Shown here one piece after another: positions 52,401 to 55,400 of a stretch of DNA of 64,000 nucleotides (the stretch's first letter is position 1; every line of letters starts with the position of its first letter). The position numbers were made by a program. Location of the stretch: NCBI RefSeq assembly GCF_053078305.1, contig NZ_CP166879.1; one strand, given 5' to 3'.

Positions 52401-55400
52401 GATGAATGGTTATGTCGCTACGACTTGCCGAAAGTCTGAACCGCTTCTGGCGACCGCTCATGATAGCGCTGCTGTGTGCGGTACTGCTGTTACGGGGTGT
52501 CCTGTGGCTGCGGTGAATAACGCCTTACCGGCCCTGATTGCCGGGGCGTGCATGGCGGCGCTGGGGACTATCGCTGTACTGGTTGCCGCGATATGGGGAA
52601 TGCACCAGAAGACGCAGCGCCTTGAAGACAATAATCAGGTGCTTGTGCGTGAGCGGGATGAGGCGCGTCAGGTGCTGGCAAATCAGCAGCACACCCTGCA
52701 ACTCATTTCACAAATCAGTGAGGCGGCCACGAATGAAAAGCAACAGAACATTCAGCACAGCGAGGAGCAGCAGAGCGTTGTCCGCCGGTCGCTGGCAGCA
52801 GTGCCTGCGGCCTCTGTCCCTGTTCCTGATGATGTGGCTGACCGGGTGCGCCGGGCCGTCTGTGAAATACGTGCCTGTGAAGCCGGTGCCGATCCCCGCT
52901 GAATGGCTGGCTGACTGCCTGGTCCCTCCTGCGCCGGAGCCGTTCACGTTTGGGGCATCGGTCACTTACAACCTGCAACTGCTGGCGGTGATCAAGAACT
53001 GCAACGTGGATAAGGCCAGTATTCGTCGTCTGGAGGCGCGGCGACAACATGAATTTACTGATATGGCCGGAACGCCTGCTGTTCCGGCAGGAAAGACGAA
53101 GTAAGGAAAAAGGTATGGATGATTCAGATCGTGCTCAGGCTGTGATGGAGCGGGGATCAGAACGCGCCCTTTGTAACCGGCTGACACGTAAGCGCCGGGC
53201 AGTGGATGCTCCGGGCAGACGTGTCTGCGCGGACTGTGGCGGAGAGATCCCCGCCGCACGTCTTGTTGCTGTGCCGGATGCCATCCGTTGTGTGAACTGC
53301 CAGAACATCATGGAGGCCCGTCATGTGGGTCAGCATCGTTAAAGATTATGTTGTGCCGATCCTTTCGGCGACGGCAACCGCTGGCGGGATATTCATGGCG
53401 CTGATGCGCAAAACGTTTGTCCCCCGCGAGGCCTTTGAAAAACTCTCCGACCGCGTTGAGAAGGTGGAAACCCGTCTGTCGTCACTGCCGACAGAAGCCG
53501 AGGTCAACCGTCTGAATGTGGAAATCGTGACCCTGCGGGGTGAACTGAAAACCACGAACGCCACGCTCCGCTCTGTCTCCTATCAGAACGAACTGCTGCT
53601 GGAGCAGGCTGTAAGGAAAAAAACGCAATGAGTGATTTCATTACTGAAGATCAGCGTCTGGTCATTCTGCGGTCGCTGGCAGATTACAACGGTGAACTGG
53701 GTGAATCCGTGCTCCAGGACTGTCTGGATGATTACGGCCACCGCGTGTCCCGCGACACCGTTCACACCCACATTGCCTGGCTTGCCGAGCAGGGACTGGT
53801 GCGCAAACGTGTTCTGATTAACGGTTATTTCATCGCAGAGCTGACCGGCCGGGGGCAGGATGTGGCGGAAGGCCGCGCCAGTGTTCCGGGTGTGAAGAAA
53901 CCACGCGCAAGGGGGTAACGATGGACAAGCCGACGCGTGGTCGTGTACGCAAGGTGGATTTGCTCCCCGACAGTATCCGTAAGCCGCTGCTGGAAATGCT
54001 GCGTGAAAAACGTCTGACGCAGGTCCAGATCCGCGAGGAAATCAACCGTCTGATCCGTGAGGCGGGCCTGCCGGAAGAGCAGCAGCTTTCACCGGCGGCC
54101 ATCAGCCGGGAAGCCTCCCGTAATGAGCTGATTGCCCGTAACCTGCGTGATTTACGCGAGCAGACAAAAGCCATGATGGCCGAACTGGGGGACAAGCCGA
54201 CCGGTGAAACCACTGCACTGATTCTGGAGATGTCCCGCGCCCTGATGTACCGCCGTCTGCGTGCCGCCACCGAATCCCTGAACAGCGACAGCGACGTGGA
54301 TATGCGTCTTATTAAGGACATCCTCCTGTCAGCACAGCGTGCGGAAAGTGCCGCCGAGCGCAGCATTAAGCGTGAAAAAGAAATCCGGGCTGCATTTGCT
54401 GAAGAGATGGCAAACGCCGTCACCGACGAGCTGCGCGGCGTGGACGGGATGAGTGAACAGCTTGAGTCCCGTATTAAGGGGATTCTGTTGGGTAAAGCCT
54501 GATGAATAACGCCGAAGAACGCTCACCCTTACTGACGAATACCGTCTCCACCCGCAAAATTGATCTGGCCGGTGAAAAAGCCCTGCTGGGCGTGGATGTG
54601 CCGGACAGCCTTGATTTGCCCGGTGATATGCCGGTGTTTCTGGATTATCAGGCCCGCTGGTTTGAGGATGAAAGCGAGGTCTGCATCGCGGAAAAATCCC
54701 GCCGCACCGGGCTTACCTGGGCGGAAGCCGGGCGTAACGTCATTACCGCTGCAAAACCGAAGCGGCGTGGTGGCCGCAATGTGTTTTATGTGGGGTCAAA
54801 GCAGGAGATGGCGCTGGAATATATTTCTGCCTGTGCATTGTTCTCCCGTGCCTTTAACCAGCTGGCCGATGCTGATGTGTATGAGCAGACCTTCTGGGAT
54901 CGGGATAAAAAAGAAGAAATTCTGACCTACATGATCCGCTTTCCGAACAGTGGATTCAAAATTCAGGCGCTGTCTTCCCGTCCGTCAAACCTGCGCGGCC
55001 TTCAGGGGGATGTGGTGATTGATGAAGCCGCGTTCCACGAGTCGCTGGATGAACTTCTCAAGGCGGCAATGGCGCTTACCATGTGGGGCGCGCGCGTGCG
55101 TATTATCTCCACGCATAACGGCGTCGATAATCTGTTTAATCAGTACATTCAGGAAGCCCGCGAGGGGCGCAAGGATTACAGCGTCCACCGCATTACCCTG
55201 GATGATGCCATTACGGACGGGTTGTACCGTCGTATCTGTTATGTCACCGGCCGCGAATGGTCACCGGAAAGCGAGCAGAAGTGGCGTGATGATCTCTACA
55301 AAAACGCCCCGACCCGTGAGGATGCCGACGAGGAATACGGCTGTATCCCGAAAAAATCCGGCGGTGCCTATATTCCTCACGCACTTATTGAAATGGCGAT

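What the first reader, a model, noticed from the sequence alone, without database searches (positions are those of the whole stretch)
53115..53342. Phage-encoded TraR/DksA-type zinc-finger protein between lysis and packaging genes
The C4 finger CADCGG...CVNCQ marks a family that binds the RNA polymerase secondary channel; a phage copy could reprogram host transcription during lytic growth.
Basis: partly seen in the sequence, partly recalled or inferred. Interest (0 to 1): 0.4.

Follow-up and report, generated by a model that had tools for sequence, protein, structure and literature searches.

The report
TraR-type RNA-polymerase regulator in Mu-like prophage
This is a real, already-annotated small zinc-finger gene of the TraR/DksA family in a Mu-like prophage of E. 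coli; it most likely binds the host RNA polymerase to turn down ribosome synthesis during phage growth, so it is an ordinary member of a known family, though in a consistently conserved spot in the lysis operon.

Summary
Window 53115-53342 (+) is a 75-codon ORF with a C38-x2-C41-x17-C59-x2-C62 finger. It passes the curated cut-offs of Pfam PF01258 (46.2 vs 24.9 bits) and of TIGR02419, the phage/plasmid TraR subfamily (78.3 vs 59.7 bits, full length).

It keeps the N-terminal DxxDxA tip (D2, D5, A7) and the Arg matching TraR R48. Its predicted fold is long helix, zinc ribbon, C-terminal helix, and its best solved-structure matches are F-plasmid TraR bound to RNA polymerase. It is under purifying selection (pN/pS 0.17-0.29).

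The host element is a Mu-like transposable prophage inserted in yegH. The same stretch occurs in 230 of 5426 complete E. coli genomes, where NCBI already names the protein "TraR/DksA family transcriptional regulator".

The downstream neighbour is a DUF2730 protein, the family of the Mu gp25 releasin, so the gene lies inside the late lysis cassette rather than after it. This TraR-like/DUF2730 adjacency recurs in nearly all Mu-like phages sampled.

Activity on RNA polymerase is inferred, not shown. The kind is already known and interest is low. The fixed pairing with the releasin gene and the degenerate Mu gp24 are minor leads.

The parts
53115..53342 (+). TraR/DksA-family C4 zinc-ribbon protein, 75 aa. 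It has the N-terminal DxxDxA tip (D2, D5, A7), Zn ligands C38/C41/C59/C62, and R49, the equivalent of TraR R48.
53102..53114 (+). Translation-initiation region of the TraR-like gene. The lysC stop codon TAA (53102-53104) overlaps the Shine-Dalgarno TAAGGA (53102-53107), which lies 7 nt before the ATG.
   Evidence: Read directly from the sequence. AAGGA with the same 7-nt spacing is conserved in L042 and L044.
53049..53114 (+). In-frame upstream extension of 22 codons, which many automatic gene calls include (the 97-aa form). It overlaps the 3' end of lysC in another frame and is almost invariant among variants. It is probably not translated as part of the protein.
51442..51867 (+). Mor/C-family transcription activator, the presumed activator of the downstream late (lysis) operon.
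   Evidence: Pfam PF08765 E=2.8e-32. It is preceded by a terminator-like hairpin at 51377-51400.
51939..52439 (+). Endolysin (phage lysozyme), 39% identical to Mu gp22. It has a basic, weakly hydrophobic N-terminus.
52474..52902 (+). Rz-like i-spanin, named 'endopeptidase' by PGAP. The exact start is taken from the homologous RefSeq annotation.
52862..53104 (+). Rz1-like o-spanin LysC with the lipobox LTGC. It overlaps the end of the i-spanin gene.
   Evidence: Pfam PF23793 E=6.6e-17; RefSeq annotation
53323..53631 (+). DUF2730 protein (Mu gp25 releasin family) with an N-terminal hydrophobic segment. It overlaps the TraR-like gene by 20 nt.
   Evidence: Pfam PF10805 E=7.1e-20; 34% identity to Mu gp25; PMC9239132
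53628..53918 (+). gp26-like small winged-helix protein
53921..54502 (+). Mu gp27-family small terminase subunit
   Evidence: Pfam PF11985 E=2.1e-33
54502..56166 (+). Large terminase subunit (Mu gp28 equivalent)

Best explanation
The gene encodes a TraR-type regulator that acts on the host RNA polymerase without binding DNA. It is co-transcribed with the endolysin, spanin and releasin-family genes in the Mor/C-dependent late operon of a Mu-like prophage. By analogy with F TraR and lambda Orf73, its long N-terminal helix enters the RNAP secondary channel and places the DxxDxA tip next to the active-site Mg2+. The zinc-ribbon domain docks on the beta' rim helices through the invariant Arg49, and the C-terminal helix contacts the beta lobe/Si1. 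The expected result, independent of ppGpp, is inhibition of promoters with short-lived open complexes (rRNA and ribosomal-protein promoters), which frees RNAP and resources for phage late expression. The three TraR residues that contact beta'Si3 and support activation (E46, R49, K50) are Ala, Leu and Val here, so inhibition is predicted to be kept and activation to be weaker. Shown here: family membership, the conserved functional residues, the predicted fold, purifying selection, and position in the late operon. Inferred: RNAP binding, the effect on promoters, and the timing and benefit to the phage.
For: Curated family thresholds are passed. phmmer against PDB sequences aligns residues 2-69 with TraR residues 3-68 of 5w1s and 6n57, placing D2/D5/A7 on TraR D3/D6/A8; the next hits are DksA and YbiI. 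In an alignment of 128 homologues, C38, C41, R49, C59 and C62 are invariant and D2, D5, I45, P54 and E67 are at least 90% conserved. The AlphaFold2 model (mean pLDDT 77) has helix 3-31, a zinc ribbon and helix 60-73. Its top Foldseek PDB hits are TraR in RNAP complexes (6n57_M prob 1.00, 5w1s_M), then DksA. pN/pS is 0.17-0.29. The roles of DxxDxA, P43/P45, R48 and E46/R49/K50 come from PMC9239242 and PMC6970531. All five phage homologues tested in PMC9239242 bound RNAP and inhibited rRNA and r-protein promoters. No sigma-70 consensus promoter and no convincing terminator lies between the Mor-family gene and the terminase genes, and genes overlap or abut throughout, consistent with one operon.
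Against: There is no experimental data for this protein or for any TraR homologue from a Mu-like phage. Identity to F TraR is only about 25-30%. Foldseek TM-scores are modest (0.47-0.52, rmsd about 10 A, E=2.6e-3), because the helices are oriented differently in the free model. The Si3-contact residues are not conserved. The previously tested phage homologues lie in early or regulatory regions, so a late-operon copy may serve a different purpose. Mu itself has a degenerate protein, gp24, at this position, which suggests the RNAP-directed function is dispensable in at least one lineage.
Confidence: 0.78

Rival explanations
1. The protein works mainly as a partner of the adjacent DUF2730 (releasin-family) membrane protein. 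It would control lysis timing or couple host shut-off to lysis, with RNAP binding secondary or absent.
For: The TraR-like gene sits immediately upstream of the DUF2730 gene, usually overlapping it, in 13 of 14 Mu-like loci analysed. These loci carry unrelated endolysin types, including lysozyme, amidase and DUF5675. Seven of nine distant homologues sampled from the global search show the same adjacency, and an eighth (P0027) lies in the same Mu-like packaging module. The mechanism of Mu gp25 is unknown, and one published model invokes an unidentified partner (PMC9239132). There is a precedent for a phage TraR forming a complex with the product of the neighbouring gene: VP882 TraR-QisA (bioRxiv 10.64898/2026.07.27.740977). 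Mu gp24 keeps the zinc ribbon but not the RNAP tip motif.
Against: Conserved gene order in a phage operon does not establish a physical or functional interaction. The DxxDxA tip and the rim-helix Arg are the most conserved positions of the clade, which points to selection for RNAP binding. In VP882 the RNAP motif was still required for the phenotype. Pseudomonas phage JBD25 has DUF2730 without a TraR-like gene.
Confidence: 0.1
2. It binds the RNAP secondary channel, but its selected role is something other than rRNA-promoter inhibition. Candidates are boosting Mor/C-dependent phage late promoters, or displacing DksA and Gre factors to alter elongation or transcription-replication conflicts during replicative transposition.
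For: F TraR activates F-plasmid promoters, so promoter-specific positive effects exist in the family (PMC9239242 outline, section 12 heading). The gene lies in the first late operon, just downstream of the Mor-family activator. Secondary-channel factors compete for one site (established knowledge of DksA/GreA/GreB).
Against: The residues that support TraR-dependent activation via beta'Si3 (E46, R49, K50) are not kept here. [quoted passage not shown] There is no direct evidence.
Confidence: 0.08
3. The real product is the 97-aa form starting at 53049, or both forms are made. Its DxxDxA motif would be internal and so could not reach the active site, giving an inactive or antagonistic variant.
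For: The 22-codon extension is open. It is preceded by GGAGG 11 nt upstream and is called in many database entries. The 66-nt stretch shows 0-1 substitutions against about 12% divergence in the core CDS. The peptide MNLLIWPERL... is partly conserved in homologues about 45% identical.
Against: The stretch also encodes the conserved C-terminus of the o-spanin LysC in another frame, and it holds the conserved AAGGA-N7-ATG/GTG initiation site of the short form. Together these account for the conservation. More distant Mu-like homologues have no such extension. In the 128-sequence alignment (selected for 60-85 aa), the family N-terminus lies 1-2 residues before the first Asp. PGAP chooses the 75-aa start.
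Confidence: 0.04

Closest known systems
F-plasmid TraR (73 aa; PDB 5W1S, 6N57/6N58)
   Same: Same length class and three-part architecture: N-terminal helix, C4 zinc ribbon with identical Cys spacing, C-terminal helix. The DxxDxA tip is 1-2 residues from the N-terminus. P45 and R48 equivalents are present. It is the best PDB match by both sequence and fold.
   Different: Only about 25-30% identical. The Si3-interface residues E46/R49/K50 are A47/L50/V51. TraR is encoded in a conjugation (tra) operon, whereas this gene is in a phage late lysis operon. No activity has been measured.
Phage TraR homologues tested by Gopalkrishnan et al. 2022 (lambda Orf73, P2 Orf82, VHML Orf8, VP882 Orf61, X. bovienii Gp34)
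   Same: Phage-encoded members of the same family with the same motifs. [quoted passage not shown] Orf73 increased burst size.
   Different: Four of the five are encoded in early or lysis-lysogeny regulatory regions; the context of X. bovienii Gp34 is unknown. This one is in the late operon between the spanin and releasin-family genes. Direct BLASTP to Orf73 is barely significant (33% over 30 residues).
TraR-like proteins of other Mu-like (transposable) phages: FluMu HI1497, Burkholderia KS10 gp7, Vibrio phage martha 12B12 gp28, Pseudoalteromonas HS6 gp35, Shewanella MuM16-2 p23, Pasteurella Pmp9_0011
   Same: Same family and, in the phage genomes examined here, the same position directly upstream of the DUF2730 gene and the gp26/gp27/terminase genes. 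For FluMu HI1497 and KS10 gp7 only the published gene tables were seen, which place them between the lysis and terminase genes. These are the nearest sequence relatives, 37-53% identical.
   Different: None has been characterised experimentally. Several have imperfect tip motifs: ExxDxA, DxxExA, or a Lys at the first Asp position.
DksA (E. coli, 151 aa)
   Same: It shares the C4 zinc-ribbon domain and the DxxDxA tip. The query even has Leu where DksA has Leu after the rim-helix Arg.
   Different: DksA has a two-helix coiled coil and needs ppGpp as a cofactor. The query has a single N-terminal helix like TraR, and it scores far below the DksA equivalog cut-offs (24.9 vs 115.5 bits).
Phage Mu gp24 (64 aa, function unknown)
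   Same: It occupies the identical position between the spanin gene and gp25, and has a CxxC...CxxC ribbon. hhalign against the TraR-like alignment gives probability 79%, E=1.6e-5, over the ribbon.
   Different: It has no Pfam match. The invariant Arg is replaced, and the tip reads E-D-Q-N-R-A instead of DxxDxA, so it is probably a degenerate derivative.

Membership tests
TraR subfamily of the DksA/TraR C4 zinc-finger family (TIGR02419 / PF01258) | Profile match above the curated thresholds, covering the full length of the TraR model | tested here: met
   TIGR02419 78.3 bits vs 59.7, profile positions 1-64 of 64. PF01258 46.2 bits vs 24.9.
TraR subfamily of the DksA/TraR C4 zinc-finger family (TIGR02419 / PF01258) | Four-Cys zinc motif C-x2-C-x17-C-x2-C spanning the globular domain and the C-terminal helix | tested here: met
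   C38, C41, C59 and C62, with the same spacing as TraR C37/C40/C58/C61. All four are invariant in 128 homologues. Zinc binding itself was not tested.
TraR subfamily of the DksA/TraR C4 zinc-finger family (TIGR02419 / PF01258) | DxxDxA motif at the extreme N-terminus of a single long helix, the tip that reaches the RNAP active site | tested here: met
   M1-D2-D3-S4-D5-R6-A7. D2 and D5 are conserved in 126 of 128 homologues and A7 in 115 of 128. The model has a helix at 3-31.
TraR subfamily of the DksA/TraR C4 zinc-finger family (TIGR02419 / PF01258) | Arg equivalent to TraR R48 (contact with the beta' rim helices) and Pro equivalent to P45 | tested here: met
   R49 is invariant (128/128) and P46 is present in 103/128. 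Their roles come from PMC9239242 and PMC6970531.
TraR subfamily of the DksA/TraR C4 zinc-finger family (TIGR02419 / PF01258) | beta'Si3-interface residues (TraR E46, R49, K50) that support activation | tested here: not met
   The query has A47, L50 and V51. Leu is also the clade consensus at position 50, in 76 of 128 sequences. This feature is tied to activation rather than to family membership. In TraR, substitutions there only mildly affect inhibition.
TraR subfamily of the DksA/TraR C4 zinc-finger family (TIGR02419 / PF01258) | Three-element fold (N-helix, globular Zn domain, C-helix) resembling solved TraR | tested here: met
   The AF2 model has mean pLDDT 77.4. The top Foldseek PDB hits are 6n57_M and 5w1s_M, with probability 0.99-1.00 but only TM 0.47-0.52.
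TraR subfamily of the DksA/TraR C4 zinc-finger family (TIGR02419 / PF01258) | Direct binding to RNAP and ppGpp-independent inhibition of rRNA promoters | not testable with these tools
   This needs biochemistry (Fe2+ cleavage competition, in vitro transcription) or dksA-null complementation.
DksA proper (TIGR02420 / NF008045) | Score above the equivalog cut-off; two-helix coiled coil of about 150 aa | tested here: not met
   24.9 bits vs 115.5 and 24.7 bits vs 289. The protein is 75 aa with a single N-terminal helix.
F-type conjugal TraR equivalog (NF010268) | Score above the equivalog cut-off | tested here: not met
   24.8 bits vs 108. It is a family member, not an orthologue of the F-plasmid protein.
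P2 Ogr/Delta-type zinc-finger late activators | Match to the Ogr_Delta profile | tested here: not met
   It is not among the Pfam hits listed up to E=1.

The most novel reading that the evidence does not exclude
The TraR-like proteins of Mu-like phages form a distinct late-operon clade that works together with the adjacent DUF2730 releasin. One version is a complex that ties shut-off of host ribosome synthesis to the moment the SAR endolysin is released; another is that the zinc-ribbon protein is the 'unknown partner' in releasin action. A related possibility is that a long 97-aa isoform with a masked tip modulates the short form.
Probability: 0.1. Interest if true: 0.55.

Novelty: already known. 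Interest (0 to 1): 0.2.

Why it matters
As given, the finding adds little. The family, its mechanism and its presence in phages are established, and this exact protein is already named in RefSeq. It would matter modestly if someone tested a Mu-like member. Every phage TraR homologue studied so far whose genomic context is known is an early or regulatory-region gene, whereas this clade is fixed in the late lysis operon next to the releasin gene, whose mechanism is still open. A late-acting RNAP secondary-channel factor could show how transposable phages keep late transcription going against the host's strongest promoters, or could reveal a link between transcription shut-off and lysis.

Tried and rejected
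- Word-indexed homologue search: it found only relatives at least 73% identical, so I used the exhaustive representative search instead.
With the single protein it returned almost only close variants. These were useful for dN/dS but not for distant synteny.
- DUF2730 alignment A2: the six sequences were too divergent (23-35% identity to the window protein in five, one 16%; no invariant column beyond Met1), so I did not try it as a pattern query for a collection scan. I used it only as a local HMM.
- Ogr/Delta-type activator, HNH, rubredoxin-like and other zinc-ribbon families: only sub-threshold hits or none, so rejected.
- RNA explanation for the conserved 53049-53114 stretch: there are no Rfam matches in 40000-64000 and no tRNA or tmRNA in the window. 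I did no dedicated covariation test.
- Consensus promoter scan: no sigma-70-like site in 50800-56200. The late promoter could therefore not be placed. The only candidate -10 is TACGCT at about 51903-51908, read by eye and unsupported.
- The terminator-like hairpin inside the gene (53235-53258): its 'T run' is CGTCTTGTTG, and its stem encodes the CGGEIPAA part of the finger, so I treated it as a chance match.
- Literature searches for an experimental study of a Mu-like TraR homologue: only annotation-level mentions turned up (KS10 gp7, FluMu HI1497).
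Full report
**1. The observation**

Window 53115-53342 (+) is an ATG-to-TAA ORF of 75 codons. 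Its product is MDDSDRAQAVMERGSERALCNRLTRKRRAVDAPGRRVCADCGGEIPAARLVAVPDAIRCVNCQNIMEARHVGQHR.

Three profile libraries place it in the TraR/DksA family:
- Pfam PF01258 (zf-dskA_traR): 46.2 bits against a gathering score of 24.9, E=4.4e-12.
- NCBIfam TIGR02419, 'phage/conjugal plasmid C-4 type zinc finger protein, TraR family': 78.3 bits against a cut-off of 59.7, over the whole model 1-64/64.
- PHROG 54, 'DksA-like zinc-finger protein': E=9.5e-20.

The DksA equivalogs and the F-plasmid TraR equivalog are matched only far below their cut-offs. The protein is therefore a member of the TraR subfamily. It is not DksA and not an orthologue of F TraR.

**2. Where it is**

- The first ~40.9 kb of the window is E. 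coli chromosome: gnd, a low-GC O-antigen region and the colanic-acid cluster.
- From about 40898 onward the window is a Mu-like transposable prophage. Its left end starts TGTAACC..., and it interrupts yegH.
- The 2.7 kb around the finding is 98.9% identical to stretches annotated 'inserted Bacteriophage Mu-like phage' in two Stx-phage records.
- An 801-nt stretch around the gene (52900-53700) is present in 230 of 5426 complete E. coli genomes.
- PGAP names the protein 'TraR/DksA family transcriptional regulator', WP_000342749.1.

The gene order, from RefSeq annotation and my own Pfam scans, is:
1. gemA-like gene
2. terminator-like hairpin at 51377-51400
3. Mor/C-family activator (51442)
4. lysozyme (51939; 39% identical to Mu gp22)
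5. Rz-like i-spanin
6. Rz1-like o-spanin LysC (ends 53104)
7. TraR-like gene (53115)
8. DUF2730 (53323, overlapping the TraR-like gene by 20 nt)
9. gp26-like winged-helix protein
10. gp27 small terminase
11. large terminase
12. portal

DUF2730 is the family of Mu gp25, the 'releasin' required to free the SAR endolysin (PMC9239132). The window protein is 34% identical to gp25. The gene therefore lies inside the lysis cassette, not simply between the lysis and packaging genes.

**3. Is it a real gene, and where does it start?**

Against five variants with 83-87% protein identity, pN/pS over the non-overlapping part is 0.17-0.29. That indicates purifying selection on this frame.

Many automatic calls start 22 codons upstream at 53049, giving a 97-aa form. 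I favour 53115 for four reasons:
- TAAGGA lies 7 nt upstream of it. AAGGA-N7-start is conserved in two loci whose TraR core is only about 45% identical and whose start codon is GTG (L042, L044).
- In 128 homologues the N-terminus lies one or two residues before the first Asp.
- More distant Mu-like homologues have no such extension.
- The mechanism of the family needs a free N-terminal tip.

The 66 nt from 53049 to 53114 are unusually invariant. They show 0-1 substitutions, against about 12% divergence in the core. The extension peptide is also partly conserved. The same bases encode the conserved C-terminus of LysC in another frame and hold the initiation site, which probably explains the conservation. 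A long isoform is not excluded.

**4. Structure and key residues**

phmmer against PDB sequences finds F TraR from RNAP complexes first (5w1s, 6n57; E about 3e-5), aligned over residues 2-69 against 3-68. DksA and YbiI follow.

An exhaustive search of 1.84 billion representative proteins gave 825 hits at E<=1e-3. Apart from the protein's own cluster, none was above about 53% identity over a near-full-length match.

In an alignment of 128 of these plus TraR, lambda Orf73 and the Vibrio phage martha protein:
- C38, C41, R49, C59 and C62 are invariant.
- D2, D5, I45, P54 and E67 are at least 90% conserved.
- A7 is conserved in 115 of 128.

Mapped on TraR (PMC9239242 and PMC6970531):

| Query residue(s) | TraR equivalent | Role in TraR |
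|---|---|---|
| D2/D5/A7 | D3/D6/A8 | DxxDxA tip that approaches the active-site Mg2+ |
| P46 | P45 | RNAP binding |
| R49 | R48 | contact with the beta' rim helices |
| A47/L50/V51 | E46/R49/K50 | beta'Si3 contact, needed for full activation; substitutions only mildly affect inhibition |

The last row is not conserved, and Leu at position 50 is also the clade consensus.

The AlphaFold2 model (mean pLDDT 77.4) has helix 3-31, a zinc ribbon and helix 60-73. Foldseek against the PDB ranks TraR (6n57_M, 5w1s_M), then DksA, YbiI and other DksA-like proteins, ahead of everything else. TM-scores are only 0.47-0.52, because the helices are splayed differently in the free model.

**5. Context across phages**

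I fetched the lysis-to-terminase regions of diverse Mu-like phages:
- Mu
- Vibrio phages martha 12B12, 1.028.O and ZX4290
- Shewanella phages MuM16-1 and MuM16-2
- Pseudoalteromonas phage HS6
- Klebsiella phage Kp4866-3
- Pasteurella phage Pmp9
- Pseudomonas phage JBD25
- several metagenomic contigs

I scanned all their ORFs with HMMs built from my TraR-like and DUF2730 alignments.

- In 13 of 14 loci with a DUF2730 gene, the ORF directly upstream matches the TraR-like profile. The E-value is 2e-12 or better in 12 of them.
- In Mu, gp24 matches only weakly (E=0.002).
- JBD25 has no TraR-like gene.

Nine distant homologues sampled down the ranking of the global search gave the same picture. Eight lie in a Mu-like late module and seven are followed directly by a DUF2730 gene. 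One contig was too short to judge.

The endolysins in these cassettes belong to unrelated families, among them lysozyme, Amidase_2 and GH108, and martha has a DUF5675 protein at that position. The TraR-like/DUF2730 pair is therefore the conserved unit.

A non-Mu phage (Halomonas vB_HboP_4908) carries its homologue in a replication/integrase region. That matches the early-region contexts reported for lambda, P2, VHML and VP882.

Annotation-level mentions of TraR-type fingers in Mu-like elements already exist: KS10 gp7 (PMC2628397) and FluMu HI1497 (PMC3877243). I found no experimental study of one.

**6. Mechanism**

The best-supported reading is the family mechanism:
- a DNA-independent, ppGpp-independent RNAP secondary-channel factor;
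- it inhibits rRNA and r-protein promoters;
- it redirects RNAP and resources to the phage.

Here it is expressed late, together with the lysis genes. Family membership, the functional residues, the fold, selection and operon position are shown. RNAP binding and its consequences are inferred from the five phage homologues that all behaved this way (PMC9239242). The loss of the Si3-interface residues predicts an inhibition-biased factor.

The rivals are:
- A functional partnership with the releasin. This is supported by the invariant adjacency, by the VP882 TraR-QisA precedent and by Mu gp24 keeping the ribbon but not the tip. It is weakened by the tip and the rim-helix Arg being the most conserved positions.
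- A different RNAP-directed role, for example at late promoters or in elongation.
- A long isoform starting at 53049.

**7. Verdict**

The kind is already known and the protein is already annotated, so interest is low.

Three leads go beyond the annotation:
- the fixed late-operon position next to the releasin-family gene;
- the degenerate Mu gp24 at the same site;
- the unusually conserved overlap region upstream of the start.

Noticed in passing
NC_000929.1 11524-11718 (L002 3025-3219), phage Mu gp24: Mu's uncharacterised gp24 sits exactly where the TraR-like gene sits in other Mu-like phages. It keeps a CxxC...CxxC ribbon (hhalign probability 79%, E=1.6e-5 against the TraR-like alignment). 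It has no Pfam match, has lost the invariant Arg, and reads EDQNRA instead of DxxDxA. It looks like a degenerate TraR homologue.
   Followed up: partly
window 53049-53114: This 66-nt stretch covers the 3' end of lysC, the Shine-Dalgarno sequence and the spacer. It shows 0-1 substitutions against variants that differ by about 12% in the adjacent TraR-like CDS. It is also an open in-frame extension of the TraR-like ORF, and that peptide (MNLLIWPERL...) is partly conserved in homologues about 45% identical. Dual constraint from lysC plus the initiation site is likely, but a 97-aa isoform is not excluded.
   Followed up: partly
window 53115-53631 and loci L003, L031, L035-L040, L032-L034, L042-L044, L046-L048: The TraR-like gene is immediately followed, usually with a start/stop overlap, by a DUF2730 (Mu gp25 releasin family) gene in almost every Mu-like phage sampled, whatever type of endolysin the phage has. 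Pseudomonas phage JBD25 is an exception: it has DUF2730 only.
   Followed up: yes
window ~40890-40930: The left end of the Mu-like prophage (TGTAACCAGGTGAATC...) interrupts the chromosomal yegH (TerC-family) gene just beyond the wza end of the colanic-acid cluster. In other E. coli genomes the same prophage sits elsewhere, for example next to ydeE, as expected for a transposable phage.
   Followed up: partly
window 51377-51400: A strong terminator-like hairpin (AAATCCCGC-CACAAC-GCGGGATTT followed by TTATTTT) lies between the gemA-like gene and the Mor-family activator gene. This suggests the activator and the late genes are on a separate transcription unit from the early region.
   Followed up: no
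window 52381-53104: The spanin pair has an overlapped architecture. The o-spanin LysC (lipobox LTGC, Pfam PF23793) starts inside the 3' end of the i-spanin gene in another frame. PGAP labels the i-spanin 'endopeptidase'.
   Followed up: partly
window 4000-14000: A low-GC block (28-38% GC) lies within the gnd/colanic-acid neighbourhood. The composition and neighbouring genes fit an O-antigen gene cluster. Only 65 of 5426 genomes match at least 80% of the first 21 kb.
   Followed up: no
L001 20173-20252 (would be about window 59072-59151): RefSeq annotates a 'tRNA-OTHER' on the minus strand between head-morphogenesis genes of a near-identical prophage. ARAGORN finds no tRNA anywhere in the window and Rfam finds nothing in 40000-64000, so it may be a PGAP false positive.
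   Followed up: partly
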